Part shown: positions 2,629 through 32,000 of the stretch, in pieces | Layout of the letters: each line of letters opens with the position of its first letter | Numbering within the stretch: position 1 is the stretch's first letter | Translations under genes and position numbers: made by a program | Source: Candidatus Methanoperedens sp. | GTDB lineage: Archaea; Halobacteriota; Methanosarcinia; Methanosarcinales; Methanoperedenaceae | NCBI GenBank assembly: GCA_041494705.1 | Contig: JBGQBI010000003.1 | Location: 120,001 to 152,000, forward strand | DNA: 32,000 nt | Direction of reading: 5' to 3' | Notes under the pieces: generated by a model | What the model was told of the DNA's origin: nothing | Database searches by the model: none | Seen by the model: only the letters and a program-made list of their open reading frames with translations

Positions 2629-4020
2629 TTAACGGAATGCGTTCTTCCCGTATCGAATGACAGCATCCAGATACCACATCATCTCAGTAAAAGACCCGGG
2701 GGACGTAATTAACTCGAATATTTTTTTTGGTCGGATGTAAAACTTTCTATATGCTTTTTTGCTATATTCCAATACATCATCCTTTTTTAGATTCCCGAAT
2801 TCAAAAAGCACATCCGTGTTGAAATAATCAGAAAGAATTCCCCCTTCCGTTGGTACTAAAAATCTCCCTTCAGCAGCTATCAGATCATAGAGGGCTGTAC
2901 CCGGGAAGGGAATCGTTATGTGGAACTGGGCTATATGAGGGTCCATCTCCAGGGCAAAATCTATGGTACTCTGCATGCTCTCACGCGTCTCATTGGGAAG
3001 CCCAAGCATAAAGAACCCATTGACTTTTATTCCCACTTCGCGTGCCCATCCAGCGACTTTCTTTACACGCTCAAGATCAAGATTTTTATTTATAATTTTC
3101 TGGATATTCGGGTCACCCGACTCGACTCCAATCCCTATCTGGAAAACACCGGCTCTCTCCAACTTTACAAGGAGTTCCTTTGTAACACTTTCTGCCCGGA
3201 GCCCGACATGGCAGGCAATTTCTATATTGAGGTTCTTTGATATAATCAAATCCGCAATCCTCATTGCCCTATCAGTATCCAGGGTAAAATTGTCATCAAC
3301 AATATCGAAATGCTTCACGCCGAATTCATTTGCCAGATACTCTATCTCAGCGATTACATTCTCCGGGGAGCGGGCTCTGAATCTTTTACCAAAAATATTC
3401 TTGTTGCAGTATATACACCCATATGGACAGCCGCGGGAAGTTATTATAGACGCTACCGGTTTTTTTCTCGCTCTTGTTGTATAGACTTTAAGGGCAGGGA
3501 AGAGGTGATAAGCAGGGAAGGGCAGGCTGTCAAGATCCTCTATCAGGGGGCGCGGCTGGTTACGAACAATCCCACCATCACACGGGAATGCAACACCATT
3601 AATTCCAGACCATTCCCGTTTCTCGACCAGTTCGAGCATTGTCATTTCACCCTCCCCTATAACTACAGCATCACATCCGGACTGTTTGAGAACATATTCA
3701 GGCATGGATGTCGGATATGGTCCCCCCATGACGATAGGGATACCTTCGGATCTCAAAAGGTTTGACAAATGTATTGCTGATTGCGCTTTGACAACGTTTG
3801 AATGGATTCCGATTATATCCGGCTCTAATTTTTTTATTTGTTCCGCCACGGTTTCATTTTTTAATTTCATGGCATTTGCATCTATTATCGTGCATTCATG
3901 CCCATTTTTTTCCAAAAAACTCCCTATGTATCCCAGCCCCAGGGGTGGAAGGAGCGTCACTGCATTTACCTTTTTCGCATAGTCGGGGTAAGGATTTACT
4001 AAAACGACACTCTTTGGCAC
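2629..4020 (-). CDS. B12-binding-domain radical SAM enzyme (class B type; possible methylase)
   Basis: It has the CxxxCxxC cluster motif GCPYGCIYC. The N-terminal Rossmann-like domain follows the class B pattern (VVLVNP...LPPLGLGYIGSFLEKNGHECTIIDAN...IVMGGPYPT...DAVVIGEGEMTMLELV). The C-terminal FFMLGLPNET...ITIPFPGT block is also present. Confidence 0.9.
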   Translation of the reverse strand: MPKSVVLVNPYPDYAKKVNAVTLLPPLGLGYIGSFLEKNGHECTIIDANAMKLKNETVAEQIKKLEPDIIGIHSNVVKAQSAIHLSNLLRSEGIPIVMGGPYPTSMPEYVLKQSGCDAVVIGEGEMTMLELVEKREWSGINGVAFPCDGGIVRNQPRPLIEDLDSLPFPAYHLFPALKVYTTRARKKPVASIITSRGCPYGCIYCNKNIFGKRFRARSPENVIAEIEYLANEFGVKHFDIVDDNFTLDTDRAMRIADLIISKNLNIEIACHVGLRAESVTKELLVKLERAGVFQIGIGVESGDPNIQKIINKNLDLERVKKVAGWAREVGIKVNGFFMLGLPNETRESMQSTIDFALEMDPHIAQFHITIPFPGTALYDLIAAEGRFLVPTEGGILSDYFNTDVLFEFGNLKKDDVLEYSKKAYRKFYIRPKKIFELITSPGSFTEMMWYLDAVIRYGKNAFR

Positions 4021-4024
4021 ATTC

Positions 4025-4777
4025 TCACAACCTATACTTCCCGGTCTTCTTCGCCACGCAGAAGAGCGAAACCCCTACTGGGAGTGATATACCTCCTTCG
4101 ATAATGCCCCTCTCCAGAGTCTGGACGCTTCCAAAAAGCCGACCTAATAAGGATGGCAGATCGGTGTAGAAGTCTGATACAGGCTCTCCATCTCTACAAA
4201 GTTTCCTTACCTTCCTGAATAGATAGACAGACGGCATAAGCAGAAAGGTCCAGTAAGTGATGCGCTCAATGGCAAAACCGCTCGCCTCCATTTTTCCTGC
4301 CAGCTCGGTTTTAGCGTACCTCCTCTGGTGGTGAAAAGCTTCGTCATGCGGGCTCCACAGGAGCATCAGTGCAGGGACAGTAACTATGAGACAACCCGTC
4401 TCTTTAATTACCCGATTGACCTCTTCCAGTGCCTTCCTGTCGTCCTTGAAGTGCTCGAAAGCATCCAGAGCGATAACCAGGTCAAAAACATTATCTTTGA
4501 AAGGCAATCTCATCGCATCGCCCCGGATAATACTGTCTATTCCTCTTTCCTTGCAGTACTTAATGCTCTCCCATGAAATGTCTATCCCGTACATTTTCCC
4601 GTAATTATCAAAGTTCTTAAAATTATTTCCGACTGCTGTCGCCAGGTCAAGAATCTTAAGATCTTTTTTATCACCGTATATTTTTTTTAAAGTATCCGCC
4701 ACGATGCAGGTTCTGGAACGATACCACCAGTCAGTTTCCTCAGTTTCATGCATCTTCTGGAACTCTTCGAATTTCAT
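4025..4777 (-). CDS. Class I SAM-dependent methyltransferase-like protein with an atypical motif I
   Basis: The Methyltransf_11/23-like core is present: ILDLATAVGNN (motif I position), MYGIDIS, DAMRLPFKDNVFDLVIALDAFEHF and LIVTVP. An SD-like GAAGGGAG lies upstream of the ATG. Confidence 0.75.
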   Translation of the reverse strand: MKFEEFQKMHETEETDWWYRSRTCIVADTLKKIYGDKKDLKILDLATAVGNNFKNFDNYGKMYGIDISWESIKYCKERGIDSIIRGDAMRLPFKDNVFDLVIALDAFEHFKDDRKALEEVNRVIKETGCLIVTVPALMLLWSPHDEAFHHQRRYAKTELAGKMEASGFAIERITYWTFLLMPSVYLFRKVRKLCRDGEPVSDFYTDLPSLLGRLFGSVQTLERGIIEGGISLPVGVSLFCVAKKTGKYRL

Positions 4778-4792
4778 GGTATAAATCTCCCT

Positions 4793-6412
4793 TCATCCAA
4801 TCTGCATTTTCGAAGGTAGTTCTTCTGGATTTGAACTATTCGCCAGATAAAACCGGCGGTTTTTTGGCGGAACTATAGGCTCATTTTTCGGCAATTTCAT
4901 GAACATGTAGGCTGGATTCGATGCATCGAATCGTTTACTTATCCACCAGAGGTAATTCAAGGCATAAGTACGACCATCCATGTCCCTGAACCCCATAAAA
5001 ACGTCAAGAATCAACACAGTCAATCGCGGGGGAAAGAAACGGAATGCTTTATATGATTTCGATTTAACTAATAATTTCCTTAAAAATGGGGGGAGAAGAA
5101 ACATCAGCCGATAAAATATCCTGAAGGAGTTCATCACTCTTAGCTTTTCTTTGCTCAAGCCTACCGAACCATCAACCATATATGTATCATGACAGCCATC
5201 TTCCAGACGGCCCACCTCTTTCTCATTAATCTGGTTATACTCCAATCCGTATCTGATTATGTCTGTCTGCGGCAGGTATTGCAGCATAAAAGATGAAACC
5301 CTGTAACAGTATTTTAGACCAGTCAGGAACTCGGCAAAACAAATGAGTTCCGATTCGGTTTGTCCGGGAAGTCCAAGGATATAATCCAGGGAATAGCGTA
5401 ACCTGTTTTTTTCTAAAAGATGTATAGCTTTATGAAACTGTTCGTCAGTCATGCTTCTATTGAGAATATGGTTTCTTATATGTTCATCATAGGACTCAAG
5501 ACCAAGCTGGACGACATCGCAACCGGCATTTTTTAGTGCAGAAACCGCCTCTTCGGTAATGAGCATCGGATGCCAGAAAATCCGGAAGGGGACGTTAATT
5601 TCTTTCTTATACTTATCGCAAAAATCAACAATCCAGCGGGTAGAAGCTGACATGACGCTGTGCCTGAAATCAATCCATTTGTATTTGTATAATTCCTTAT
5701 GGTATTTTAATTCGGCAATAACGGAATCTACAGACCTCTCACGGAAACGTTTTCCGCCAATTTTTTCCCATTCTTTAGCTTCAAATGACAATGAACAATA
5801 AGAGCAATTGAACGGGCAACCGCGGGCTATTACAGAAAGGTAATAGTTCCTTATTGGAACATGCCTTGCAAAAAGTTCCTTATCGACCATGGGAAGTTCA
5901 TCCAAGTTCGCAATCTGAGGGCGCTTAGGATTACGAATAATTTCTCCATCTGGCGTTTTGAACCACAGGTTTTTTATTTTAAAATCAATCTCTCCGCGTT
6001 CTATCGAGTTGCACAATTCCAGTAAGGCATATTCTCCTTCCCCGAGACATATAATATCAACCGGATCTTCACGGATAACTTTCTCCGGAACACTGTATGG
6101 ATGTATTCCACCAAAGATGATGGGTACATCGAGATATTTCTTGATTTCCCTCGCCATATCCAATGCCCACCGATATGTGGTAGTCATAACTGAAAAAGCA
6201 ACCAGATCCGGCTTAGATTCAATAACCTGGTGAAGGGCTCTCTTTTTCATATCAAATATTTTAGCAATTTTTGGGATACAAAGATAATTTTTATCGTCGA
6301 AGAGAGATTGGTCGTAAGCTAATGTAACCTCATGCCCATTTGCCTTCAATATAGCTGAAAGACACTGGACAGATATATTTTCCCAGCCCATAGCAACAAA
6401 AGTGCATCTCAT
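4793..6412 (-). CDS. B12-binding-domain radical SAM enzyme with a ~115-aa hydrophobic/basic C-terminal tail
   Basis: It has the CxxxCxxC motif GCPFNCSYC. The N-terminal B12-like domain reads LKANGHEVTLAYD...VPIIFGGIHPYSVPE...DIICLGEGEYALLEL. The tail (nt 4796-5140) contains FRIFYRLMFLLPPFLRKLL and LTVLILDVFMGF. Confidence 0.85.
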   Translation of the reverse strand: MRCTFVAMGWENISVQCLSAILKANGHEVTLAYDQSLFDDKNYLCIPKIAKIFDMKKRALHQVIESKPDLVAFSVMTTTYRWALDMAREIKKYLDVPIIFGGIHPYSVPEKVIREDPVDIICLGEGEYALLELCNSIERGEIDFKIKNLWFKTPDGEIIRNPKRPQIANLDELPMVDKELFARHVPIRNYYLSVIARGCPFNCSYCSLSFEAKEWEKIGGKRFRERSVDSVIAELKYHKELYKYKWIDFRHSVMSASTRWIVDFCDKYKKEINVPFRIFWHPMLITEEAVSALKNAGCDVVQLGLESYDEHIRNHILNRSMTDEQFHKAIHLLEKNRLRYSLDYILGLPGQTESELICFAEFLTGLKYCYRVSSFMLQYLPQTDIIRYGLEYNQINEKEVGRLEDGCHDTYMVDGSVGLSKEKLRVMNSFRIFYRLMFLLPPFLRKLLVKSKSYKAFRFFPPRLTVLILDVFMGFRDMDGRTYALNYLWWISKRFDASNPAYMFMKLPKNEPIVPPKNRRFYLANSSNPEELPSKMQIG

Positions 6413-6415
6413 TAT

Positions 6416-7369
6416 TTAAAATCCCCGTGTATCAGAATAACCATATTCTTTCCTAAAGGCATCATCCCAATTTAATATGACTTTATTCGGATGATTTGCA
6501 TCTTTCTTGCAATACTCCAACAGGCAGAATGGACGCTTTTTTGTATTAAATTGTTTAGCCATCCTTTTCCAGATGACTGCAAGCGGTTCTTTATAGATAT
6601 TGCCATAGACATCATGAATCCGGTCGCAAATCATTACATCCCCATCGTTTGTAACATAGATTTTTTCCACTCCTGCAGGACAGCGATTTTTTCCTGCCCA
6701 GAATATGTTGTCTTCTCTCACATATGGAAGATTCCGGTATTTCAGGTAAAATTCATTGTCAAGAGAGAATTTCATAGGAAAGTTATAAAGCACAAAAGAA
6801 TTCTCCTCTTTTGCTATCTGTATTGCATCTTCATTGAATTCATGTTCTTCTTTAATGGGAATTATACTGAGACAAATCGGGATTCTATTTTTGTGGGCAT
6901 ACTGGATTAATTCTCTCTTAAAATCTCCGATATAGTTGGATCCATAGCTGATTTGTATTGAAGTAACACCGGCATTTTTTACCATGTCTATTTTATCCTT
7001 AGTAAGGAGTTTTCCATTGGTTACAAGAGATATTATGACATCTTCGGGGATGGAAGAGATTACATCAAATATATCCTTTCTCAACAATGGTTCCCCGCCC
7101 GTGATATTCAGGTGTACCATTCCCATCTCCTTCGCCTGCAACACGATTTCTTTAATTTTTTCAAGAGGGATGTCTTTAGTATTACCTTCCTGCATCAAAT
7201 CATTTGCATAGCAGTATGTGCAATTATAATTACATCTCCATGTCACTGCCAGTTCAACGCTGCGTAACACGGGAATGCCAATCCGCATTTTTAATTCTGA
7301 CGTTAATACCCGGTAAAAAACGGCAGGGTTTTTTATAAAGCGAAACTGCATCAATAGTTTCTTAAACAT
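6416..7369 (-). CDS. Radical SAM enzyme with a SPASM/twitch-like C-terminal Cys cluster
   Basis: It has the motif WRCNYNCTYC, the GGEPLL SAM-binding motif, and the C-terminal Cys pattern RCPAG...MICDR...PFCLLEYC. The ORF track extends it to a TTG at 7453. I prefer the ATG at 7369 (MFKKLLMQ) because the extension is low-complexity (LYTYLY) and coincides with TATA-like repeats. Confidence 0.85.
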   Translation of the reverse strand: MFKKLLMQFRFIKNPAVFYRVLTSELKMRIGIPVLRSVELAVTWRCNYNCTYCYANDLMQEGNTKDIPLEKIKEIVLQAKEMGMVHLNITGGEPLLRKDIFDVISSIPEDVIISLVTNGKLLTKDKIDMVKNAGVTSIQISYGSNYIGDFKRELIQYAHKNRIPICLSIIPIKEEHEFNEDAIQIAKEENSFVLYNFPMKFSLDNEFYLKYRNLPYVREDNIFWAGKNRCPAGVEKIYVTNDGDVMICDRIHDVYGNIYKEPLAVIWKRMAKQFNTKKRPFCLLEYCKKDANHPNKVILNWDDAFRKEYGYSDTRGF

Positions 7370-7385
7370 GTTGGTCTTCTGAGGG

Positions 7386-7428
7386 ATAAGTAAGTATATA
7401 AATTTATCATATAAGTATGTATATAAAT
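7386..7428 (-). promoter_or_regulatory. Tandem 18-nt direct repeats, each carrying an archaeal-consensus TATA box (TTTATATA on the minus strand)
   Basis: ATAAGTAAGTATATAAAT (7386-7403) and ATAAGTATGTATATAAAT (7411-7428) match at 17 of 18 positions. The minus-strand TTTATATA at 7402..7395 is centred ~27 nt upstream of position ~7372, just before the ATG at 7369. No SD precedes that ATG. Confidence 0.35.
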
Positions 7429-7482
7429 ATGCCGTATAGTTAAGGATAATCAAATTTACAATTAAGTTCGATAAATGTCAGG

Positions 7483-8214
7483 ATGGAAGTAAATACGATG
7501 GCAGGAAAAACAGAACAGTCGATAATTATCCCGGCTTATAACGAAGCAGGGAGAATAAGTTCTTTTTTAGAGGAACTCCTGAACTTTTCAAATTTAAATT
7601 TAAATAATTATGAAATTATTATTGTTAACGATGGAAGTACCGATGGCACCGAAGATGTAATAAATAATCTAATTAAAGGTAGAAATGATGTGAGTTTAAT
7701 CGGGTATTCCACAAATAAAGGTAAAGGAGAGGCGGTTAAATTTGGGATTTTTAACTCTTGTGGTGAAAAAATAATATTCATTGATGCAGATGGTTCGGTT
7801 GCTCCAAATTTGATGCCTGAGATAGTGAAAAGATTGGACGAATATGACGTAGTGGTAGGAGATAGGTCTTTAAAAGAATCCAGAATTAAAACCAGGGTTC
7901 ATAGGTGGTTCCTGGGAAAAATTTTCAATATTATGGTAAATCTCTTATTCCGGACAAACACCAGGGATAATCTCTGTGGTTTTAAAGGATTTAAAAGAGA
8001 TGTAGCTGAAGAATTATTCAATGATTTAATTGAAAAAAGATGGCTGTTTGATGTTGAAATTTTCTATAAGATTAAACAAAACAAATTTAGTTTATACCGC
8101 ATGCCCATACAGTGGGAATATGTAGGAAATTCAAAAGTAGGGTTTTCAGACCCCGTAAAAATATTTTTAAGACTCTTTGTTTTAAGAATTAAATTGTTTA
8201 GAAAATGGGATTAA
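7483..8214 (+). CDS. GT2 family glycosyltransferase, polyprenyl/dolichyl-phosphate beta-glucosyltransferase-like (ALG5/GtrB type)
   Basis: Diagnostic motifs are IIIPAYNEAGRI, IIIVNDGSTDGT, FIDADGS (DxD) and GDRS...NLCGFKGF. The small soluble GT-A fold size fits. An alternative start is the ATG at 7498. Confidence 0.85.
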   Translation: MEVNTMAGKTEQSIIIPAYNEAGRISSFLEELLNFSNLNLNNYEIIIVNDGSTDGTEDVINNLIKGRNDVSLIGYSTNKGKGEAVKFGIFNSCGEKIIFIDADGSVAPNLMPEIVKRLDEYDVVVGDRSLKESRIKTRVHRWFLGKIFNIMVNLLFRTNTRDNLCGFKGFKRDVAEELFNDLIEKRWLFDVEIFYKIKQNKFSLYRMPIQWEYVGNSKVGFSDPVKIFLRLFVLRIKLFRKWD

Positions 8215-12651: not shown

Positions 12652-12694
12652 ACGAAACATATTAATTTAAATACTCTTGGGGAAATCACAGAGC

Positions 12695-17729: not shown

Positions 17730-17774
17730 AAGGATATATACAAGAATTTTTTTGCATGTGGAAATAAAATCTTT

Positions 17775-25118: not shown

Positions 25119-26329
25119 TAGTTTCTCTCTTTGAACAATATTTCCAGATTATTCATAATTTCATCAGCGCGCTTCTCCCAGTCCCATTTTTCAATTATAA
25201 GATTTCTAGCATCATTTGCGGTATTTGTATATAAATTTTCATCTCTCAAAAGTTCTAAAATACTGTTGGCAAAACCCGTGATGTCTCTAGGAGGGACTTT
25301 TAGCATACCTTTTGGATAATACGTCCTTAAAGCCTCTAAATCAAAGCTCACTCCCGGCAGTCCCCATGCCATGCCTTCAGCAGCCGCCATACCGCCGCTG
25401 TCGTAGATTGCCGGGTGAACCATGAGCTTGCTCATCTTGAATATCTCAAATTTCTCGTTACCGTCTTTAAAGCCGAGCATATCGATTTGTTCTTCGAGGT
25501 TCTGTTCGTTTATTTTTTTTCTTACTTCTTTTTCCAGAGGACCATTCCCAATCATCGCCAGCCTTGCATCTGGCTTTGCTTTGCATACGTTTGCCCAGAT
25601 ATCGATTAATTCCAGTACACCTTTCTGGGGATGCAGCCTGCCCACGAAGCACGCATCATATTTTCTTTTATCTTTCGGGATTACCTTTTTTGAATTTAGA
25701 TATTTTGTTGAAGGGTTTATATCCACCCCGCCGCGAATTACCATTATCCCATTCCTGCCTCTTTTTCCTGTAATAAATCTTCTGACATCTGGTTCGCTGG
25801 TAACGAAGACAGCATCCGCATAACGCTTAACAATCCAGTAGATTGGCAATTGGGATAAATAATAAAACAGTCCTTTTAATTTTCTATCGCCGGTATAAGG
25901 CGAATCTCTGGAAAATGGATTGGGTGCAAAAAGGTAAAATCCTGCAACCCATTTTATTTTATCTTTAAACTTTAATTTCAATGCAAAAGCAGGAATAGAA
26001 TCCGGTAAAAAATCCGAAGCTGAATATACTATTAAATTATCAGGGGCTTTTTGAACTTTTAAAGCCCGGATACAACCTTTAATCGTCCTTATCATGTACA
26101 TAGGCACAAATCCAAGGTTTTTGTACCTTGAAGCCCGACATATCGTATAGTTAACATTCTCAAGATTATTCCTCATACACATTTCATAGCCTTCTTCCCA
26201 GACAAATATGTTTATAACATATCCAGATGTTGTCCATCTCCTGGCAAGCTCTATAAATATCCGGTCTCCCCCGCTTAGACCAAACCCGAGTGCGGCATTA
26301 GCAATTACGTAGATATTTTTAAGCTTCAT
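25115..26329 (-). CDS. GT4-type (GT-B fold) glycosyltransferase
   Basis: The N-terminus reads IYVIANAALGFGLSGGDRIFIELARRW. The C-terminal domain contains FVGRLHPQKGVLELI, AMIGNGP and YDSGGMAAAEGMAWGLPGV. A 4-nt ATGA overlap links it to the downstream MTase. Confidence 0.85.
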   Translation of the reverse strand: MKLKNIYVIANAALGFGLSGGDRIFIELARRWTTSGYVINIFVWEEGYEMCMRNNLENVNYTICRASRYKNLGFVPMYMIRTIKGCIRALKVQKAPDNLIVYSASDFLPDSIPAFALKLKFKDKIKWVAGFYLFAPNPFSRDSPYTGDRKLKGLFYYLSQLPIYWIVKRYADAVFVTSEPDVRRFITGKRGRNGIMVIRGGVDINPSTKYLNSKKVIPKDKRKYDACFVGRLHPQKGVLELIDIWANVCKAKPDARLAMIGNGPLEKEVRKKINEQNLEEQIDMLGFKDGNEKFEIFKMSKLMVHPAIYDSGGMAAAEGMAWGLPGVSFDLEALRTYYPKGMLKVPPRDITGFANSILELLRDENLYTNTANDARNLIIEKWDWEKRADEIMNNLEILFKERNY

Positions 26330-27092
26330 GCAAATTTGCTTCTTTTCTTGCTATAACTTCTATGCAATGGTATCCCGGGATTGGAATTGAGGAAAATTTT
26401 CTTAAATAATTCAAATGGTGCGCAGGGAATGTTCTAAAAAATTCTGATTTAAATATTTGAAATAATAGTTTAAAAAAAGGGTCAATTAGAGGATATTTTA
26501 ATGCTGGCGTATCTTTATATATTATTGAAAAATTATTTTTTTTCAATAAATCTTCAAAACTTTGAATGGATTTATATTCTCTCAAATGGGTTGGTTCGAG
26601 TACGGACTCCCCAGCATCATTTTTGTAAAAATATCTTGCATTTTTTGACTTTAAAACTGTCGTGCATAAAAATATTCCATTTGGTTTTAATATTCTATTT
26701 ACCTCATTTAAAAATAAATCATCATCGAGATGTTCGATAACCATCGTTGATGTTGCCATATCAAATGACTCATTCTCAAAATTAGTATGCAAAATATCAT
26801 TACACAATATAGTCACATCGCGAAGCCACATTTTTGTATCTCCACAAATAACTTCAGAAGAATCAACACCGTAAAGGTTTATATTTTTATTAATTTTTCT
26901 TATGTTATACAACAATGTTCCGCTTCCGCACCCCATATCTACAAGCTTAGAATTATTGTTATCTAAAATTTCAAGGAATTTACTCCAGATCAAGTCGGAG
27001 GAAATTATAAATTTTCGGTCTAAAGGAGCACCAAACGTTTTTTTATAGCGGTTATTAAACCAACGCGAATTATCTTCATTGTTATCAATCAT
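26319..27092 (-). CDS. Class I SAM-dependent methyltransferase
   Basis: Motif I is LVDMGCGSGTLL, followed by LYGVDSS, FDMATSTMVIEHLDD and GIFLCTT. An SD-like TAGGA lies 5 nt upstream of the ATG. Confidence 0.85.
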   Translation of the reverse strand: MIDNNEDNSRWFNNRYKKTFGAPLDRKFIISSDLIWSKFLEILDNNNSKLVDMGCGSGTLLYNIRKINKNINLYGVDSSEVICGDTKMWLRDVTILCNDILHTNFENESFDMATSTMVIEHLDDDLFLNEVNRILKPNGIFLCTTVLKSKNARYFYKNDAGESVLEPTHLREYKSIQSFEDLLKKNNFSIIYKDTPALKYPLIDPFFKLLFQIFKSEFFRTFPAHHLNYLRKFSSIPIPGYHCIEVIARKEANLHEA

Positions 27093-27186: not shown

Positions 27187-28677
27187 TCATCTACCCTGCC
27201 CTCTAATTTTTAATAAATTATTTATAGAGTGATTTACTTTTATTAACCCTATTTGCATAACATATTTAGGATGCCATGTCAAAATTTTTAACATTTGTTT
27301 TGGTCTATAATAAAATTGACTGGCTGCCCTATTCCAGAGTTTAATGAGTTCATCTTCAGAAATCCCATCTAAAGAAAAGGTACGTGCCGAGCCAAACCGA
27401 TAATCTTTCCAGTCATTACTTTTAAGCAAACCCTTATCCTTAACATATTTATACAGACGTGTTCCTGGGAATGGGGTAACCAAAGTAAACAATGCATAAT
27501 CAAGGTCGAGTCTTTGGGATAATTTAATTGTATCCTCTATAGTTTCTTTAGTTTCCGTCGGGTAGCCTATCATGAAATATGCTTTAACCCGGATTCCTGA
27601 TTCCTTAATCATTTTAACAGTTTCAAACACCTGATCAATTTTTAAGCCCTTTTCCGCGAAGTCTAATATTTTCTGGTTCCCAAATTCGATACCGAGGGCT
27701 ATGGATTTGCAGTTTGCTTTTTTCATCTCAATTAATAATTCGCGGCTTAACGTGCCCACCCGCCCGTTAGTTTCCCAATCAATCTTATTTAATCCTCTCT
27801 CTACCATTCCCCTGCAAATTGCCATTGCCCATTTCTTATTCAGCGTAAATAAGTCATCTTCTATTCGAATCGCTTTTACGTTATATTTCTTATAAACAAA
27901 TTCTATTTCATCAAGTACGTTTTCAACGGATCGTCTTCTCTGGTTGCCCCATACTGCATTACAGGCACAGAAATGGCAGGCAAACGGGCACCCCCTGGAA
28001 CTCAGTATGAGTGTAAATGGTTTTTGCCCGCCGATAGAATGCGGCGAACGATATGCATCTAAAGGTAAAAGGTCTCTTGCCGGAAATGGTAATTCATCAA
28101 GATTTTTAAGATATTCACTTTGTTGATTTATAATAATTTGACCGTCTAACCTGTACGCAATACCTTTAACCTGAGCTAACTCGCCTCCTGCGCGGACTGT
28201 TTTAATTAATTCCAGCGTTGGATATTCCCCTTCTCCTATTACGCAGTAATCCACGAAAGGCATTGTCTGCATCACCTCTTCATGCTGCGGATGTATATGC
28301 GGTCCTCCAAAAATAATTTTAGTTTGTGGTGATTTTTCCTTTATCCCCTTTGCGATTTCTCCACAAACGTTGACCATAAATGTATATACGGTAACTCCAA
28401 CGAAATCGGGTGCATCGTTAGCGACTGATTCAATAACACCCTCGACAGATTGTTTCAATGCATTTCCATCAATTATTTTAACATCCATCCCATTATTTTG
28501 CAGTACAGCAGCAACATATGCTAATCCTATCGGCGGATCGATCACAAGCAAATCATTCTTAATAGCATTGATATAATCCGCATCAGGTGGTGAAATTAAC
28601 ACTACGATAGGTGGTTTTTTCTCATTGGGTTTTATTTCTTTAGTGTTTTCAATCATAATCCTTAACCTTTTTAGCAA
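27187..28677 (-). CDS. B12-binding-domain radical SAM enzyme (class B type)
   Basis: It has the motif GCPFACHFC. The N-terminal domain reads IVVLISPP...DPPIGLAYVAAVLQNNGMDVKIIDGN...IIFGGPHIHP...DYCVIGEGEYPTLELI. The C-terminal YFMIGYPTET...LVTPFPGT block is present. Confidence 0.9.
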   Translation of the reverse strand: MLKRLRIMIENTKEIKPNEKKPPIVVLISPPDADYINAIKNDLLVIDPPIGLAYVAAVLQNNGMDVKIIDGNALKQSVEGVIESVANDAPDFVGVTVYTFMVNVCGEIAKGIKEKSPQTKIIFGGPHIHPQHEEVMQTMPFVDYCVIGEGEYPTLELIKTVRAGGELAQVKGIAYRLDGQIIINQQSEYLKNLDELPFPARDLLPLDAYRSPHSIGGQKPFTLILSSRGCPFACHFCACNAVWGNQRRRSVENVLDEIEFVYKKYNVKAIRIEDDLFTLNKKWAMAICRGMVERGLNKIDWETNGRVGTLSRELLIEMKKANCKSIALGIEFGNQKILDFAEKGLKIDQVFETVKMIKESGIRVKAYFMIGYPTETKETIEDTIKLSQRLDLDYALFTLVTPFPGTRLYKYVKDKGLLKSNDWKDYRFGSARTFSLDGISEDELIKLWNRAASQFYYRPKQMLKILTWHPKYVMQIGLIKVNHSINNLLKIRGQGR

Positions 28678-29317
28678 TCATTATTTGTCCCTTGGGCATT
28701 AATCCAAAATAGCTCCCGTTCCATTTGTGGTCAATCACTTCAAAGCCTGAATTTTCCAGTACACTCTTTAAAGTCTTTTTTGTAAAAAATCGTATATGAG
28801 GGTTGGTTGGGTAGAAATATCTGTCAAATATAAATGCCAATATAAGTATTTTTAACAAATTGAAATCAGTTGTGGTTATTATTAAATGTCCCCCCATCTT
28901 TAAAGTTCTATTAAATTCCCTGAACATTTTTTCTACATCAAGAATATGTTCAACTACTTCAATTGAAGTGATTACATCAAAATACTGGGATGGGAATAGT
29001 AAATCAGTAATCTGGCTGACTTTAAAATTAATACCACTATACATGTCTCTGGCGAGCTTAATTGCAGTCTCAGAAATATCAACTCCATAAACATTGCTTA
29101 CGTTATCTAATTTCGCGAGTTCATTGGTAAAAAAACCACTCCCGCATCCAACGTCGAGAACAATACCTTTAATTACCGGTTTAGACACTTTTAAAATCCT
29201 GTTCAGATCAACCTCGTTCCATTCGGGAGGGGCTGTTGCAACACCTTTTTTGTTAACAGTCTCCATGTGCCAGTATCGTTCATAATAATTTTTTTCCAAA
29301 TCATGCACCTCCATCAT
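28649..29317 (-). CDS. Class I SAM-dependent methyltransferase
   Basis: Motif I is VLDVGCGSGFF, followed by VYGVDISETAI, FDVITSIEVVEHILD and GHLIITT. Confidence 0.85.
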   Translation of the reverse strand: MMEVHDLEKNYYERYWHMETVNKKGVATAPPEWNEVDLNRILKVSKPVIKGIVLDVGCGSGFFTNELAKLDNVSNVYGVDISETAIKLARDMYSGINFKVSQITDLLFPSQYFDVITSIEVVEHILDVEKMFREFNRTLKMGGHLIITTTDFNLLKILILAFIFDRYFYPTNPHIRFFTKKTLKSVLENSGFEVIDHKWNGSYFGLMPKGQIMIAKKVKDYD

Positions 29318-30455
29318 AAGAATTCAGTATTAGTTTTGCATTGCGTTCCGAAAAATGTTTTATCGCATAATCTCGACAATTGCCAGCAAGCCGCTCATAT
29401 TTTTTTTTGTTATTATACAAATCATTAATGGTATTTTTCAAATTTTCCATGGTCGGTTCAACAAGCACACTAACGCTGCTGTCAACTGCTAACGGAATCG
29501 CCCCTTTATTTGACCCGACAAGTGGTAAGCCACATGATATAGATTCTAAAATTACTTTTGCGAACCCTTCTTCGTATTGAGAAGGTATGGCAAAAATATC
29601 GCTTGCATTATAATATAATGGCAAATTATTATTATCCACTTTTCCAACAAAAATGACATTTGGCAACATTCCAGAAGATTTTTTTATATCTTCACTCAGA
29701 GGACCATCCCCTATAAATGCAAAGTGTATATTACTCTGGGTTTGTCTTGCAACATCCAATAAAACCTCAGCACCTTTGATTTTAATAAATCTTCCAACAA
29801 ACAATACAATAAATTTTCCATCCCACCCAAGCCTCTTTTTTGCTTCTAGTTTATCCTTTGGTTTGAAGATTTGCAGGTTAATCCAATATCTATAAACGTC
29901 TATTTTAGATTCTGATAATCCTAATTTTAACATCTCTTCTTTTGATTTATTTGATAAAGCCAAAATTTTATCTGCCGAATCCAGCGTCCATTTCATCAAT
30001 AGAGCAGTAAAAGACCGTTTATTTATTACGTAGAGTGCATGAGTGCTTGCGACAAATCTTTTGTTAAAAACTTTAGATAATATTTTTGCGATGAATGAAG
30101 CATTGAATCCCTGTGCATGTATTACATCAACCCTACCTGGATTTTGCAGCATGAAAATAAAGCTTCTGAAAAGAAGCCAAGGCGTGAGATAAAAAAATTC
30201 AAGAAATGGGTATTTTTCAAGTTTATGAAATAAATTCAAACCAAACCATGAATATCTCCTAATATCGAGGTTATCATTTTTCTCAACAGCTTTGCCTCTT
30301 GCTTTTGTTGTGATTGGTTGGTAGGTAAGAACATAAACCATGCAAACGTTTTTCCTCAAATACTCACACAGGTCATGGAGATGTGTTTCAACTCCACCTA
30401 TATTCGGTCTGAAAAAAGGAGATATAATCAGTACTTTTTCTTTTTGTATTTTCAT
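29301..30455 (-). CDS. GT4-type (GT-B fold) glycosyltransferase
   Basis: Diagnostic motifs are VLIISPFFRPNIGGVETHLHDLCEYL, FVGRFIKIKGAEVLL, FIGDGP, and the E-x7-E motif in IPSQYEEGFAKVILESISCGLPLVGS. Confidence 0.9.
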   Translation of the reverse strand: MKIQKEKVLIISPFFRPNIGGVETHLHDLCEYLRKNVCMVYVLTYQPITTKARGKAVEKNDNLDIRRYSWFGLNLFHKLEKYPFLEFFYLTPWLLFRSFIFMLQNPGRVDVIHAQGFNASFIAKILSKVFNKRFVASTHALYVINKRSFTALLMKWTLDSADKILALSNKSKEEMLKLGLSESKIDVYRYWINLQIFKPKDKLEAKKRLGWDGKFIVLFVGRFIKIKGAEVLLDVARQTQSNIHFAFIGDGPLSEDIKKSSGMLPNVIFVGKVDNNNLPLYYNASDIFAIPSQYEEGFAKVILESISCGLPLVGSNKGAIPLAVDSSVSVLVEPTMENLKNTINDLYNNKKKYERLAGNCRDYAIKHFSERNAKLILNSYDGGA

Positions 30456-30468
30456 TTTTTTAAACTTC

Positions 30469-31590
30469 CTAATTCTCGATGAGTTCTTTTATATCAATTT
30501 TGGGGAGTGAACTGACATACTTGAGTATATTATTCCTGTATTGTTCCTGCGCATGAAAAATCTTAAATATCGAATTTATGAATTCGGTCTCAGATGGCTC
30601 GATAACAAGGCCTAACTCATTATCTCTAACTACCGATGAAAAAAATCCAATACCGTCTGTAACAATAACAGGAAGCATATACTGGATATAATGCATAATT
30701 TTTCCGGGAATGGTGTAATATGAGTAGGTTTGTTTTAATGTTAGTATGTTTATCCCACAAAAGCAATCAGATAATATCTTAATTAATTGATCTGTTTCAA
30801 CAAAGCCTAAAAATTTAACATATTGTTCGACATGATATTGCTTGGATAATTGCTTAAAATACTCGTAATGGTGAGTTTTTGGACCAATGATTATTAAAGA
30901 AACGTCTTCTTCCTGCCTTATTTTGTTCAGCGCCTTTATTGCTAAATCCAAGCCAGAATCTTTCCTCATCTGTCCAATAAAGCATATATTTTTACTCATT
31001 TTGTTAGGGGAGATTGCACTTATTTTAATTCTCGGGTTAAATATGTATAATTTTTCTTTTTTCGCAATTTTTCTGCCCCAAAATTTATATCGCGCTTCGG
31101 ATAGTCTCGGAGTATGGTTTAAAACTACGTCATTAAGTTTGCATGCAAGATAATCATTAATTGGAAAAAGTAAATTATTGGCAACATAGCTGAAAAAGTT
31201 TTTTTTATTAACAGGATTTACGAGCCAATCGCCCGGTACGTATATAGATTCATCACACAGACGGCACTTGCGTAATAACCCTACAATAACCGCTGCATCG
31301 GTATTCTCAACCCAGACTACTCTGGGTCGAAATTTCCAGCAAATTAGAAAAAAAAGTTTTAAAATTTTGACAGTGTTGAAGATGTAAAAATACTTGTGAT
31401 TTTTGGTTTTAAAATACCAAATAATGTTATCTTTTAAGTAAATATTGGATGGTTTATAGCGAACCGTTATTTTCTCCAGGTCATGAATCAGGATAATGGA
31501 ATTCTTGCTGTAATTAATAATATCATTTTCAAAGGACTCTGTATCGGAAGAATTCATTTTAAATGCTAAAATATCTGCTTTGACCATCAA
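30469..31590 (-). CDS. Divergent GT-B fold glycosyltransferase-like protein
   Basis: The C-terminal half has the GT1/GT4 layout (CFIGQMRKDSGLDLAIKAL, LIIIGPK, VKFLGFV, LPVIVTD). The canonical E-x7-E motif is not evident, and the N-terminal half is unrecognisable. Confidence 0.55.
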   Translation of the reverse strand: MMVKADILAFKMNSSDTESFENDIINYSKNSIILIHDLEKITVRYKPSNIYLKDNIIWYFKTKNHKYFYIFNTVKILKLFFLICWKFRPRVVWVENTDAAVIVGLLRKCRLCDESIYVPGDWLVNPVNKKNFFSYVANNLLFPINDYLACKLNDVVLNHTPRLSEARYKFWGRKIAKKEKLYIFNPRIKISAISPNKMSKNICFIGQMRKDSGLDLAIKALNKIRQEEDVSLIIIGPKTHHYEYFKQLSKQYHVEQYVKFLGFVETDQLIKILSDCFCGINILTLKQTYSYYTIPGKIMHYIQYMLPVIVTDGIGFFSSVVRDNELGLVIEPSETEFINSIFKIFHAQEQYRNNILKYVSSLPKIDIKELIEN

Positions 31591-31658
31591 TGAATCTCCA
31601 TATAATTTCCTTATTTTGATTAAACAATCTATTTTATTTTATAGTTTATATGAATAAT

Positions 31659-32000
31659 CTATTTATTTAATACCATCTGTCTCTTAACAATATAATCCAA
31701 CATGTCCATCCTATGCATTTTTAATTCTTCGTTGGTCAGATTCGGATGCTTATATATAAAGTCTGTCTCCGCCTCTCCATCGCGTAATCCAAGGGTCATA
31801 ACGAACCTTTCGTAATCATGTGTCAATAATTCCATGCCATAATCCTGCGGTTTTTCGTAAATATCGCATCCAGGAAATGGGACAAAAGTCGAAACATCCA
31901 CTCCATCGGGCTGGACATCCTCTATGAAATCAATGTTCATTTTGCCGGTATTTTTTGCTTCTCCGGGTAAACCTACAATAAAAAACAGCCTTACTTTCAA
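31659..32000 (-). CDS. C-terminal part of a radical SAM enzyme (probably another B12-domain type); the 5' end lies beyond the right window edge
   Basis: FFIVGLPGEAKNT...VSTFVPFPGCDIYEK aligns with the FFMIGxPTET...PFPGT block of the five complete B12-type radical SAM proteins in the window. The Fe-S motif and N-terminal domain are out of view. Confidence 0.7.
   Translation of the reverse strand: MKVRLFFIVGLPGEAKNTGKMNIDFIEDVQPDGVDVSTFVPFPGCDIYEKPQDYGMELLTHDYERFVMTLGLRDGEAETDFIYKHPNLTNEELKMHRMDMLDYIVKRQMVLNK

What the first reader, a model, noticed from the sequence alone, without database searches (positions are those of the whole stretch)
2629..32000. Radical-SAM-saturated glycan tailoring island: 8 radical SAM enzymes and 4 SAM methyltransferases interleaved with 9 glycosyltransferases
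Counted directly from the sequence, 8 of ~25 CDS carry or belong to radical SAM families.

- Five are complete proteins with CxxxCxxC plus an N-terminal B12-type domain: 2629, 4793, 13237, 22737, 27187.
- One is a probable sixth, truncated by the window edge: 31659.
- Two are SPASM/twitch types: 6416, 11523.

They sit in the same tightly coupled operons as 4 class I MTases, 2 GT2, 3 GT-B and 4 putative GT-C enzymes, plus dTDP-rhamnose genes.

Characterised class B radical SAM enzymes methylate unactivated carbons. Examples are GenK/GenD1 on aminoglycoside sugars, Fom3, and HpnP/HpnR on hopanoids. Others do unusual C-C chemistry on lipids, such as the archaeal GDGT ring synthases. SPASM/twitch enzymes such as BtrN oxidise sugar carbons.

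I know of no characterised surface-glycan pathway that uses this many radical SAM enzymes. The inference is a pathway making a heavily C-/O-methylated, or otherwise radically rearranged, rhamnose-containing cell-surface glycan or glycolipid.
Basis: partly seen in the sequence, partly recalled or inferred. Interest (0 to 1): 0.85.

Follow-up and report, generated by a model that had tools for sequence, protein, structure and literature searches.

The report
Radical-SAM-rich archaeal surface-glycan island
A methane-oxidising archaeon (Methanoperedenaceae) carries a sugar-coat gene island of at least 42 kb in which a third of the genes are radical SAM enzymes placed beside membrane glycosyltransferases, an arrangement that recurs in other uncultured anaerobes and points to untested radical chemistry on cell-surface sugars.

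Summary
The window encodes 5 complete B12-domain radical SAM (rSAM) proteins, 2 rSAM/SPASM proteins and a sixth B12-rSAM cut by the window edge. The source contig shows that one to be a 421-aa B12-rSAM. There are also 4 class I methyltransferases, 2 GT2, 3 GT4 and 4 GT-C enzymes, plus RmlA, an RmlC-like protein and RmlD.

The source is a Methanoperedenaceae (ANME-2d) archaeon. The island runs at least 10 kb further, with a ninth rSAM, Gmd and an aminotransferase.

No rSAM reaches the cutoff of any characterised family. The nearest models are HpnJ, BchE and ApyD, and the best solved-structure match is AftD-unrelated AprD4; none of these is a methylase. "Heavily C-methylated" is therefore possible but unsupported.

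New here: B12-rSAM genes sit directly upstream of GT-C genes. For the AftD-like GT-C family this holds in 12 of 18 loci (odds ratio 10.6, p = 2e-4). Both window GT2s look like polyprenyl-phosphate sugar synthases.

My best reading is a strain-variable surface-glycan pathway in which rSAMs tailor sugars, some probably while lipid-linked, before GT-C transfer. I found no published description. I rate it a new variant of a known kind, interest about 0.68.

The parts
1..640 (-). RmlD (dTDP-4-dehydrorhamnose reductase), C-terminus cut by the window start
   Evidence: PF04321 219.5 bits. The N-terminal IGANGQLG Rossmann motif is present when read from an upstream GTG/TTG.
710..1195 (-). RmlC-like cupin, 161 aa, divergent
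   Evidence: PF00908 38 bits against cutoff 27. TIGR01221 rmlC only 30.6 bits against cutoff 155.75.
1202..1483 (-). 93-aa ORF with no recognised family
   Evidence: Called as a gene on the source contig. No Pfam hit at E<=10.
1480..2553 (-). RmlA, long form (glucose-1-phosphate thymidylyltransferase)
   Evidence: TIGR01208 476.8 bits against cutoff 320.
2629..4020 (-). B12-domain radical SAM, 463 aa
   Evidence: PF02310 plus PF04055. Motif CPYGCIYC. Best NCBIfam hit is HpnJ at 220 bits against cutoff 578.
4025..4777 (-). Class I SAM methyltransferase, 250 aa
   Evidence: Methyltransf_11 69 bits.
4793..6412 (-). B12-domain radical SAM, 539 aa, the most divergent paralog
   Evidence: PF02310 plus PF04055. 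Motif CPFNCSYC. 24-27% identical to the other paralogs. A 39.5% relative in L088 precedes an AftD-like GT-C.
6416..7453 (-). Radical SAM with a SPASM/twitch-like C-terminus (345 aa maximum; called as 317 aa, 6416-7369)
   Evidence: Radical_SAM 69 bits, SPASM 28.5 bits. The N-terminal half resembles MoaA and viperin. 5 extra Cys.
7483..8214 (+). GT2, 243 aa, polyprenyl-phosphate sugar synthase type
   Evidence: PF00535 111 bits. Matches spanning most of the protein are to PgfS, ArnC, AglJ, PpgS and Dol-P hexose transferase, all below cutoff.
8270..10399 (+). GT-C fold glycosyltransferase, 709 aa, with a C-terminal CBM-like beta-sandwich
   Evidence: 9 predicted TM segments. AF2 pLDDT 91.5. Foldseek hits STT3, EmbA/B, PglB and ArnT; the C-terminus hits CBM29/6/32. 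hhalign to the PMT_2 group gives 87% probability.
10424..11230 (-). GT2, 268 aa, polyprenyl-phosphate sugar synthase type
   Evidence: PF00535 120 bits. Best matches, covering most of the protein, are PgfS, ArnC and AglJ.
11523..12602 (+). Radical SAM/SPASM, 359 aa
   Evidence: Radical_SAM 48.6 bits, SPASM 32.1 bits. Motif CTSRCQTC plus 7 C-terminal Cys.
12677..13222 (+). 181-aa protein with an N-terminal TM segment, unknown function
   Evidence: No Pfam or NCBIfam hit. One predicted TM segment.
13237..14664 (+). B12-domain radical SAM, 475 aa, 5 bp upstream of a GT-C gene
   Evidence: PF02310 plus PF04055. Best solved-structure match is AprD4 6fd2, E 1.6e-38. Relatives at 49-52% identity lie next to GT2 or PMT_2 genes.
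14670..17729 (+). GT-C (PMT_2 type), 1019 aa
   Evidence: PMT_2 44.5 bits. 10 predicted TM segments. GDD in the first loop and a non-canonical WWDD motif.
17775..20321 (+). GT-C (PMT_2 / weak STT3), 848 aa, tandem paralog of 14670
   Evidence: PMT_2 41.6 bits, STT3 27.9 bits. 42% identical to 14670.
20325..22730 (-). AftD-like GT-C, 801 aa (called as 799 aa)
   Evidence: AF2 pLDDT 86.4. Foldseek top hit is AftD 6w98, E 1e-10. Remote homologs carry PF11847. In 12 of 18 loci a B12-rSAM lies directly upstream.
22737..24218 (-). B12-domain radical SAM, 493 aa, 6 bp upstream of the AftD-like GT-C
   Evidence: PF02310 plus PF04055. Motif CPSQCTFC. Best NCBIfam hit is ApyD at 210 bits against cutoff 750.
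24222..25118 (-). Class I SAM methyltransferase, 298 aa
   Evidence: Methyltransf_23 102 bits.
25115..26329 (-). GT-B (GT1/GT4) glycosyltransferase, 404 aa
   Evidence: Glycos_transf_1 102 bits.
26319..27092 (-). Class I SAM methyltransferase, 257 aa
   Evidence: Methyltransf_23 61.6 bits.
27187..28677 (-). B12-domain radical SAM, 496 aa (called as 489 aa)
   Evidence: PF02310 84 bits plus PF04055 95 bits. Motif CPFACHFC.
28649..29317 (-). Class I SAM methyltransferase, 222 aa
   Evidence: Methyltransf_23 89 bits.
29301..30455 (-). GT4 glycosyltransferase, 384 aa
   Evidence: Glycos_transf_1 101 bits plus Glyco_transf_4 65 bits.
30469..31590 (-). GT-B (GT1) glycosyltransferase, 373 aa
   Evidence: Glycos_transf_1 71 bits.
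31659..32000 (-). C-terminal 113 aa of a 421-aa B12-domain radical SAM that continues beyond the window
   Evidence: HpnJ model E 5e-9. The full gene on the source contig (L090:7532-8797) carries B12-binding plus Radical_SAM domains and CSHNCSFC.

Best explanation
This is part of a strain-variable cell-surface glycan biosynthesis island, at least 42 kb long, in a Methanoperedenaceae (ANME-2d) archaeon. Its unusual feature is that radical SAM enzymes do much of the sugar tailoring.

**Shown**
- NDP-sugar genes are present: RmlA, an RmlC-like protein and RmlD in the window; Gmd, a DegT-type aminotransferase and an Fcl-like protein just beyond it.
- Three cytoplasmic GT4 enzymes are interleaved with three class I MTases and three B12-rSAMs (window 22.7-32 kb).
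- Two small soluble GT2s of the polyprenyl-phosphate sugar synthase type and four GT-C enzymes are interleaved with three B12-rSAMs, two SPASM rSAMs and one MTase (2.6-22.7 kb).
- B12-rSAM genes sit directly upstream of GT-C genes, here and in unrelated metagenomes.

**Inferred**
- The GT4/MTase/rSAM block builds and decorates an oligosaccharide on a lipid carrier in the cytoplasm.
- The GT2s load single sugars onto dolichyl or polyprenyl phosphate.
- The rSAMs coupled to GT-C genes modify those lipid-linked or nucleotide-linked sugars by H-atom abstraction. Possible outcomes are C-methylation, deoxygenation, epimerisation or ring contraction.
- The GT-C enzymes then transfer the modified sugars onto the surface glycan outside the membrane. 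The CBM-like domain of the 709-aa GT-C fits a glycan acceptor.
- Which reaction each rSAM catalyses is not known.
For: **Gene content**
- Domain content and motifs.
- GT-C folds for all four large membrane proteins.
- Both GT2s match polyprenyl-P sugar synthases (PgfS, ArnC, AglJ, PpgS) over most of their length.
- Tight gene spacing.

**Context of relatives**
- Relatives of the 13237 rSAM at 49-52% identity sit next to GT2 or PMT_2 genes in 3 of 3 loci. One locus has 7 rSAMs, 2 GT2 and 2 PMT_2.
- Homologs of the AftD-like GT-C have a same-strand B12-rSAM immediately upstream at 9 of 17 positions, against 7 of 73 other genes (odds ratio 10.6, p = 2e-4). By locus this is 12 of 18 when L088, L089 and the window are included.
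- Overlapping stop/start triads or pairs GT2 -> B12-rSAM -> polytopic membrane protein occur in L019 and L086.
- L085 encodes a GtrA_TM-MTase-rSAM fusion just upstream of a PMT_2 gene.
- Across loci chosen by rSAM homology, 12 of 83 rSAMs are followed by a large polytopic membrane protein, against 29 of 408 for other genes. Seven of those 12 belong to GT-C families.

**Precedents for rSAMs acting on sugars**
- HpnJ and Cds act on lipid-linked sugars (PMC13459092).
- AprD4 is the best solved-structure match.

**Host and variability**
- Host assignment: a Nop5 encoded about 11 kb beyond the window start is 90% identical to a Ca. Methanoperedens protein.
- Evidence for a variable island: only 2 hits above 57% identity for the 13237 rSAM, against dozens at 64-90% for Nop5. 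Per-gene GC ranges from 0.30 to 0.47.
Against: - No biochemical data exist for any of these proteins or for the organism's glycans.
- None of the rSAMs has a TM segment.
- Characterised sugar-tailoring rSAMs act on soluble substrates.
- Among relatives of the 13237 rSAM at 30-40% identity, immediate neighbours are no richer in GTs than genes about 9 kb away. The clearest signal there is rSAM-rSAM tandems.
- The rSAMs upstream of AftD-like GT-Cs are not strict orthologs of one another. The pairing holds at family level only.
- The general rSAM->membrane-protein enrichment is modest (p = 0.047, and the loci are not independent).
- No flippase, priming phosphoglycosyltransferase or canonical AglB was found in the roughly 54 kb examined.
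- The GtrA fusion is a single example.
Confidence: 0.6

Rival explanations
1. Most of the B12-domain rSAMs are class B methyltransferases that C-methylate sugar carbons, as GenK and GenD1 do. Together with the four class I O-/N-methyltransferases they would give a poly-methylated, rhamnose-containing glycan.
For: - All carry a well-scoring PF02310 domain with the conserved GGPH...GEGE region.
- Most characterised B12-rSAMs are methylases (PMC12931638).
- Methylase models (PhpK, Sden_1168, HpnR, the RiPP C-methyltransferase family) do give 100-160 bits.
- rSAM-MTase adjacency recurs.
Against: - The top-scoring models for every paralog are the non-methylases HpnJ, BchE and ApyD.
- The best solved-structure match is the dehydratase AprD4 (E 1.6e-38), against MgmA at 1e-17, TokK at 6e-8 and TsrM at 3e-4.
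- No curated cutoff is reached.
- The paralogs are only 24-35% identical to each other, which suggests different reactions.
- The rhamnose pathway is incomplete.
Confidence: 0.25
2. The rSAMs act on a protein or peptide rather than on sugars. The target would be an S-layer or surface protein, or a RiPP-like precursor, which the GT-C (PMT-type protein O-glycosyltransferases) and other GTs then glycosylate.
For: - SPASM-domain rSAMs are typically peptide maturases.
- The best NCBIfam model for 22737 is the RiPP enzyme ApyD.
- PMT_2 and TMEM260-like families include protein O-mannosyltransferases.
- Small proteins of unknown function lie in the operons (1202-1483 and 12677-13222).
Against: - No precursor-like peptide, leader peptide, protease or exporter was seen.
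- The ApyD score is 28% of its cutoff.
- The 709-aa GT-C has a CBM-like domain, and the 801-aa one resembles the glycan-elongating AftD.
- The clusters are full of NDP-sugar enzymes.
Confidence: 0.08
3. The rSAMs modify lipids rather than sugars. The target would be the dolichol or polyprenol carrier or the archaeal membrane lipids, as with GrsA/B, Tes and the GDGT methylases. They would sit in a glycolipid head-group cluster.
For: - Several archaeal lipid-modifying enzymes are B12-rSAM or SPASM proteins (PMC13459092).
- 6416 weakly matches the tetraether synthase Tes (E 1.3e-6 to 7tol; NCBIfam 49 bits against cutoff 450).
- The ladderane-lipid rSAM model scores 73-144 bits.
Against: - All scores lie far below the cutoffs.
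- Equivalent rSAM+GT clusters occur in bacteria (Omnitrophota, Planctomycetota, Nitrospirota) that lack archaeal lipids.
- The conserved partner is a GT-C, not a lipid synthase.
Confidence: 0.07

Closest known systems
[quoted passage not shown]
   Same: A glycosyltransferase puts a sugar on a lipid and a radical SAM enzyme then remodels that lipid-bound sugar (PMC13459092). HpnJ is the best or second-best NCBIfam model for 4 of the 5 complete B12-rSAMs in the window.
   Different: Scores are 106-220 bits against a cutoff of 578, so these are not HpnJ orthologs. There are no hopanoid or GDGT genes nearby. Here there are many rSAMs per cluster, coupled to GT-C transferases that pass the sugar on.
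Aminoglycoside sugar-tailoring rSAMs: AprD4 (C3' diol dehydratase), GenK/GenD1 (C-methylases), BtrN
   Same: These are rSAM enzymes acting on unactivated sugar carbons. AprD4 is the best solved-structure match of the 13237 rSAM (E 1.6e-38).
   Different: They act on soluble secondary-metabolite pseudo-oligosaccharides, with one or two rSAMs per pathway. The AprD4 model scores 153 bits against a cutoff of 500. AprD4 does not bind cobalamin (PMC12931638).
Polyprenyl-phosphate monosaccharide pathways feeding GT-C enzymes: ArnC/ArnD/ArnT, GtrA/B/C, PgfS/PgfM, and DPR->DPA (DprE1/E2) feeding Emb/Aft including AftD
   Same: A small GT2 loads a sugar on polyprenyl phosphate. The sugar can be modified while lipid-linked. 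A GT-C then transfers it outside the membrane. Both window GT2s match ArnC, PgfS, AglJ and PpgS best. The 801-aa protein matches AftD best.
   Different: In the known systems the lipid-stage tailoring is done by a deformylase or a flavin/NAD epimerase, never by a radical SAM enzyme. No GtrA- or ArnE/F-like flippase was found in the window.
Archaeal N-glycosylation (Agl) clusters and bacterial O-antigen/S-layer glycan clusters with O-methylated sugars
   Same: They share the mix of NDP-sugar genes, GT2, GT4, class I methyltransferases and GT-C, and they are strain-variable with mosaic GC.
   Different: From my own knowledge, characterised examples use no, or at most isolated, radical SAM enzymes. 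Literature searches found no rSAM-rich example. No canonical AglB (WWDxG) is present here.

Membership tests
Radical SAM superfamily (PF04055) | CxxxCxxC cluster-binding motif and a core domain above the Pfam gathering score | tested here: met
   All 7 complete proteins score 48.6-105 bits against a cutoff of 29.5 and each has one CxxxCxxC. The full-length eighth has CSHNCSFC.
Class B (cobalamin-domain) radical SAM enzymes | N-terminal B12-binding (PF02310) Rossmann-like domain fused to the rSAM core | tested here: met
   PF02310 scores 68-84 bits against a cutoff of 32 in 2629, 4793, 13237, 22737 and 27187. It is also annotated in the 421-aa protein.
Class B (cobalamin-domain) radical SAM enzymes | Actual cobalamin binding and methyl transfer from methylcobalamin | not testable with these tools
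   AprD4 and ArsL carry similar domains without binding cobalamin (PMC12931638). This needs purified protein.
HpnJ / BchE / AprD4 / HpnR / PhpK / MgmA / ApyD equivalogs | Score at or above the NCBIfam curated cutoff for the family | tested here: not met
   The best ratios are BchE 224/481, HpnJ 220/578, ApyD 210/750, AprD4 153/500, HpnR 110/650 and MgmA 117/360.
SPASM/twitch radical SAM subfamily | C-terminal PF13186 domain with Cys ligands for auxiliary Fe-S clusters | tested here: met
   SPASM scores 28.5 and 32.1 bits against a cutoff of 21.5. 11523 has 7 C-terminal Cys. 6416 has only 5, so it may hold a single (twitch-like) cluster.
GT-C glycosyltransferases | Polytopic N-terminal membrane domain with the GT-C fold plus an extracytoplasmic C-terminal domain | tested here: met
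   PMT_2 scores are above cutoff for 14670 and 17775. AF2 plus Foldseek place 8270 and 20325 among GT-C structures only: STT3, Emb, PglB and ArnT for 8270; AftD at E 1e-10 for 20325. Each has 9-10 predicted TM segments.
GT-C glycosyltransferases | Conserved acidic residue in the first extracytoplasmic loop | tested here: met
   GDD follows TM1 in 14670 and 17775. D45 is invariant in the 8270 family. E66 (in GGEGNY) is nearly invariant in the 20325 family. A catalytic role was not tested.
AglB/STT3 oligosaccharyltransferase | WWDxG motif at the start of the C-terminal domain, and an STT3 profile match | tested here: not met
   14670 and 17775 have YWWDD(V/L)L with no Gly. STT3 is borderline at 27.9 bits against 24.5 for 17775 only. 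archaeo_STT3 scores 14 bits against a cutoff of 450.
Polyprenyl-phosphate glycosyltransferase subgroup of GT2 (DPM1/ArnC/GtrB/PgfS-like) | Similarity over most of the protein to members of the subgroup at curated cutoffs | tested here: inconclusive
   The best matches that span most of the protein are PgfS, ArnC, AglJ, PpgS and Dol-P hexose transferase, but all lie below cutoff at 37-85 bits. No C-terminal TM segments are predicted.
dTDP-L-rhamnose pathway (RmlABCD) | All four enzymes present | tested here: inconclusive
   RmlA passes its cutoff. RmlD matches strongly by Pfam. The RmlC-like protein is far below the equivalog cutoff. No RmlB passes in the roughly 54 kb examined; a 296-aa SDR scores 180 against 365.

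The most novel reading that the evidence does not exclude
B12-domain radical SAM enzymes form a widespread, uncharacterised tailoring layer for lipid-linked sugars. They would modify polyprenyl/dolichyl-phosphate monosaccharides made by small GT2s, by C-methylation, deoxygenation, epimerisation or ring contraction. This would be an anaerobic counterpart of the DprE1/E2 or ArnD step. They would hand these non-standard donors to dedicated GT-C transferases (AftD-like, PMT_2, TMEM260-like), giving surface glycans with sugar types not yet described in archaea or in candidate-phyla bacteria.
Probability: 0.3. Interest if true: 0.88.

Novelty: new variant of a known kind. Interest (0 to 1): 0.68.

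Why it matters
Thousands of B12-domain radical SAM proteins from uncultured anaerobes have no known function. The 13237 protein alone has more than 5000 relatives at E<=1e-10.

This locus and its relatives give many of them a concrete, testable context: surface-glycan assembly. They also offer a specific handle, the translationally coupled rSAM->GT-C pair, for choosing substrates such as Dol-P- or Und-P-sugars for in vitro work.

If the inference holds, it would add radical chemistry to cell-envelope glycobiology. It would predict new sugar structures on methane-oxidising archaea. Those structures bear on aggregate formation, on recognition by viruses and Borg elements, and on possible biomarkers. 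It would also enlarge the known reaction space of class B radical SAM enzymes.

Tried and rejected
- **Genome scan.** A first alignment was too diverse to seed it. I obtained the taxonomy from a neighbouring Nop5 instead.
- **Neighbour census.** A Pfam census of the +/-1 neighbours of 76 relatives at 30-40% identity, against distal controls, showed rSAM-rSAM clustering (24/133 against 4/83). It showed no near-over-far enrichment of GTs. The broad family is therefore not uniformly glycan-linked.
- **Membrane proteins by sequence.** Sequence and profile searches of 8270, 20325 and 17775 against solved structures found nothing significant. Pfam at E<=10 found nothing either. Only structure prediction settled their fold.
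- **Profile comparison.** hhalign of the 20325 family against the PMT_2 group was weak (20% probability).
- **Co-inheritance test.** I tested whether the rSAMs upstream of AftD-like GT-Cs are co-inherited orthologs of 22737. They are not.
- **OST hypothesis.** I considered 14670 and 17775 as oligosaccharyltransferases. I rejected this because the WWDxG glycine is absent.
- **Naming related loci.** Cluster-member look-ups gave no organism names for L085-L089.
- **Other features.** No tRNA genes, Rfam families or informative repeats mark the island edges.
- **Literature.** Six full-text searches found no description of rSAM-rich surface-glycan clusters. The library omits most subscription-journal papers.

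Full report
**What is in the window.**
- A mechanical ORF list and a greedy gene caller give 26 CDS in four tightly packed operons. The caller reproduces the published gene calls on the source contig. Most gaps are between -29 and +15 bp.
- Pfam and NCBIfam scans give the following, in window order:
  - RmlD (1-640, minus strand, cut by the window edge);
  - an RmlC-like cupin; a 93-aa unknown; RmlA;
  - B12-rSAM 2629; MTase 4025; B12-rSAM 4793; rSAM/SPASM 6416;
  - GT2 7483; a 709-aa membrane protein (8270); GT2 10424;
  - rSAM/SPASM 11523; a 181-aa unknown; B12-rSAM 13237;
  - PMT_2 GT-C 14670; PMT_2 GT-C 17775; an 801-aa membrane protein (20325);
  - B12-rSAM 22737; MTase 24222; GT4 25115; MTase 26319; B12-rSAM 27187; MTase 28649; GT4 29301; GT1 30469;
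  - a truncated ORF at 31659.
- All seven complete rSAMs carry exactly one CxxxCxxC motif.
With an assumed genomic background of 1-3% rSAM genes, 8 of 26 has a binomial tail of 1e-10 to 6e-7. The background is assumed, not measured.

**The two uncertain items in the observation.**
- The truncated ORF matches the C-terminal part of HpnJ/PhpK-type models (E 5e-9). On the source contig it is a 421-aa protein with B12-binding and Radical_SAM domains and the motif CSHNCSFC.
- The two large membrane proteins have no Pfam hit even at E<=10 and no sequence match to solved structures.
- With alignments of their homologs, AlphaFold2 gave confident models: pLDDT 86.4 with pTM 0.87, and pLDDT 91.5 with pTM 0.90.
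- Foldseek against the PDB returned only GT-C enzymes at the top. For 20325 these were AftD 6w98 at E 1e-10, then STT3, PglB, AftA, ArnT and Pmt4. For 8270 they were STT3, EmbA/B, PglB and ArnT.
- The C-terminal beta-sandwich of 8270 matches carbohydrate-binding modules CBM29, CBM6 and CBM32.
- Remote homologs of 20325 carry PF11847, GT-C_AftD. All four "putative GT-C" proteins are therefore GT-C.

**Source and extent.**
- An exact-sequence look-up places the window on a 2.07-Mb contig of JGI metagenome 3300053059.
- A Nop5 gene about 11 kb beyond the window start is 90% identical to a "Candidatus Methanoperedens sp." protein. Dozens of hits at 64-86% identity are Methanoperedens or Methanoperedenaceae. 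The host is an ANME-2d-type archaeon.
- Beyond the window end the island continues for at least another 10 kb. It contains:
  - the rest of the sixth B12-rSAM;
  - an Fcl-like SDR and a DegT-type aminotransferase;
  - GDP-mannose 4,6-dehydratase, which passes its NCBIfam cutoff (500 against 415);
  - a GT2, a BrnT/CopG toxin-antitoxin pair and another SDR;
  - a 504-aa rSAM with a weak B12-domain match, a CX4CX2C motif in place of CX3CX2C, and HpnJ as its best NCBIfam model;
  - another GT2.
- The island is therefore at least 42 kb long with at least 9 rSAM genes.
- It looks strain-variable and mosaic. Per-gene GC ranges from 0.30 to 0.47. The 13237 rSAM has only two hits above 57% identity, whereas Nop5 has dozens at 64-90%.

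**What the rSAMs are, and are not.**
- The five complete B12-type paralogs are only 24-35% identical to each other. They are old, distinct lineages rather than a recent amplification.
- None reaches the curated cutoff of any NCBIfam family. The best ratios are BchE 224/481, HpnJ 220/578 and ApyD 210/750.
- For every paralog the top models are HpnJ, BchE or ApyD. Methylase models (PhpK, Sden_1168, HpnR, MgmA, KedN5, TsrM) score lower.
- Against solved structures, 13237 matches AprD4, an aminoglycoside sugar diol dehydratase, at E 1.6e-38. It matches MgmA (9ccb; identified through PMC11796369) at 1e-17, and OxsB, TokK, CysS and TsrM more weakly.
- The proteins thus do not nest in a clade with a proven non-glycan substrate. 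The data equally give no support for calling them C-methyltransferases.
- A 2026 review of B12-dependent rSAM enzymes mentions no glycan or polysaccharide substrate at all.
- The two SPASM proteins resemble MoaA, viperin, BlsE and Tes only in the N-terminal core.

**Conservation of the association with glycan genes.**
- Three relatives of 13237 at 49-52% identity all lie next to GT2 or GT-C genes.
  - L084, from a Nitrospirota MAG, reads B12-rSAM, GT2, rSAM.
  - L085 has a GtrA_TM-MTase-rSAM fusion overlapping a PMT_2 gene.
  - L086 has 7 rSAMs, 2 GT2, 2 PMT/PMT_2 and sugar-phosphate genes in 18.7 kb.
- Homologs of the AftD-like GT-C at 68%, 42% and 42% identity (L087-L089) sit in clusters with 3-6 rSAMs, class I MTases, GT4s, SDR epimerases/dehydratases, an aminotransferase, UDP-glucose dehydrogenase and a split transketolase.
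- In 48 GTDB loci of at least 15 kb chosen by homology to 13237, 23 have two or more rSAMs and 11 have four or more.
- At 30-40% identity, however, the immediate neighbours of the rSAM are enriched in other rSAMs (24/133 against 4/83 distal genes). They are not richer in GTs than the distal genes. Not every member of the wider family is glycan-linked.

**A new, specific regularity: rSAM followed by GT-C.**
- In the window, 13237 ends 5 bp before GT-C 14670, and 22737 ends 6 bp before the AftD-like GT-C 20325.
- In L088 and L089 the B12-rSAM stop overlaps the start of the AftD-like gene.
- A metagenome scan with the AftD-like family returned 21 loci. The gene immediately upstream on the same strand is a B12-rSAM at 9 of 17 evaluable positions. 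Among all other genes in those loci, 7 of 73 are B12-rSAMs (odds ratio 10.6, Fisher p = 2e-4).
- Counting one primary copy per locus and adding L087-L089 and the window gives 12 of 18. Two further loci (L087 and L094) have a class I MTase inserted between the two genes.
- In loci chosen by rSAM homology, 12 of 83 rSAMs with a coupled downstream gene are followed by a polytopic protein of at least 400 aa, against 29 of 408 for other genes (odds ratio 2.2, p = 0.047).
- Seven of those 12 are GT-C families (PMT, PMT_2 or TMEM260-like) and one is a Wzx-like flippase.
- L019 shows an overlapping triad: GT2 (318 aa, 2 TM), then B12-rSAM, then a 9-TM 566-aa protein.
- The upstream rSAMs are not strict orthologs of one another. 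The coupling is between families, and the modules are shuffled.

**Mechanistic reading.**
- GT-C enzymes use polyprenyl-phosphate-linked donors; this is established knowledge of the fold.
- Both window GT2s match, over most of their length, the polyprenyl-phosphate sugar synthases PgfS, ArnC, AglJ, PpgS and Dol-P hexose transferase, although below the cutoffs.
- Sugars can be tailored at the lipid-linked stage. ArnD does this in lipid A modification and DprE1/E2 do it upstream of Emb/Aft enzymes (my own knowledge). The rSAMs HpnJ and Cds remodel lipid-bound sugars (PMC13459092).
- The simplest model is therefore a chain: GT2 makes Dol-P-sugar, a coupled rSAM (sometimes with an MTase) modifies it, and a dedicated GT-C transfers it to the surface glycan.
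- The GT4/MTase/rSAM operon (22.7-32 kb and beyond) would assemble and decorate the core oligosaccharide from dTDP- and GDP-activated 6-deoxy or amino sugars.
- Gene content, folds and adjacency statistics are shown. The substrates and the reactions are inferred.
- I put 0.6 on rSAM tailoring of glycan intermediates in a surface-glycan pathway, and about 0.3 on the lipid-linked-donor version.

**Rival readings.**
- Protein or peptide substrates (0.08) and lipid substrates (0.07) are not excluded. They fit poorly with the bacterial distribution of the clusters, the NDP-sugar gene content, the CBM-like and AftD-like GT-Cs, and the absence of precursor-like genes.

**Novelty and score.**
- Six full-text literature searches found no description of such clusters. 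The library is incomplete.
- The building blocks are all known kinds: glycan islands, class B rSAMs acting on sugars in natural products, and GT2/GT-C relays.
- What appears undescribed is the combination: rSAM saturation, and conserved rSAM->GT-C coupling across archaea and bacteria.
- I rate it a new variant of a known kind, with interest 0.68.

Noticed in passing
L090:2644-3188 (about 5.3-5.8 kb beyond the window end): A BrnT toxin / CopG antitoxin pair sits in the middle of the glycan island, between an SDR and a GT2 gene. This fits a mobile or mosaic origin.
   Followed up: no
window 1-32000: Per-gene GC swings from 0.30 (MTase 26319) to 0.47 (GT-C 14670, B12-rSAM 13237). Blocks at 7.5-10.4 kb and 20.3-32 kb are at about 0.32-0.39, and 12.7-17.7 kb is at about 0.47. 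The island looks assembled from several sources.
   Followed up: partly
window 14670-20321: The two PMT_2 GT-C genes are a tandem duplication: 42% protein identity, with DNA repeats D1/D2 spaced 3.0 kb apart. Both carry an unusual YWWDD(V/L)L motif where oligosaccharyltransferases have WWDxG.
   Followed up: partly
L090:42-1556: The ninth rSAM (504 aa, weak B12-domain match, best NCBIfam model HpnJ at 165 bits) has CWHAKCTFC, a CX4CX2C motif, in place of the canonical CX3CX2C.
   Followed up: no
L085:5788-7791: A 667-aa fusion protein combines a GtrA/DPMS-type TM domain, a class I methyltransferase and a radical SAM domain. It overlaps the start of a PMT_2 GT-C gene. Only this one example was seen.
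   Followed up: partly
window 8270-10399 (roughly residues 570-709): The 709-aa GT-C ends in a beta-sandwich that matches carbohydrate-binding modules (CBM29, CBM6, CBM32). This suggests a glycan acceptor rather than a protein acceptor.
   Followed up: partly
window 1202-1483 and 12677-13222: Two conserved small ORFs lie inside the operons and have no recognisable family. One is 93 aa, between RmlA and the RmlC-like gene. The other is 181 aa with one N-terminal TM segment, just upstream of B12-rSAM 13237.
   Followed up: no
L089:15238-17060 and 20517-21770: A related cluster encodes a split transketolase pair and a GHMP kinase plus nucleotidyltransferase next to its rSAMs. This hints at branched-chain or higher-carbon sugar synthesis.
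   Followed up: no
L010, L019, L086: Other uncultured lineages have even denser rSAM loci. By my own ORF calls and phmmer matching, a Bathyarchaeota MAG (L010) and an unclassified bacterium (L019) each show 8-9 rSAM-like ORFs in about 20 kb. Some of the L010 ORFs are short fragments. L086 has 7 rSAM genes in 18.7 kb on the record's own annotation.
   Followed up: partly
window 710-1195; L001; L090: The dTDP-rhamnose set is incomplete. No RmlB passes its cutoff anywhere in the roughly 54 kb examined, and the RmlC-like protein is short and divergent. A complete Gmd with an aminotransferase lies beyond the window, so GDP-derived 6-deoxy or amino sugars are at least as likely as rhamnose.
   Followed up: partly
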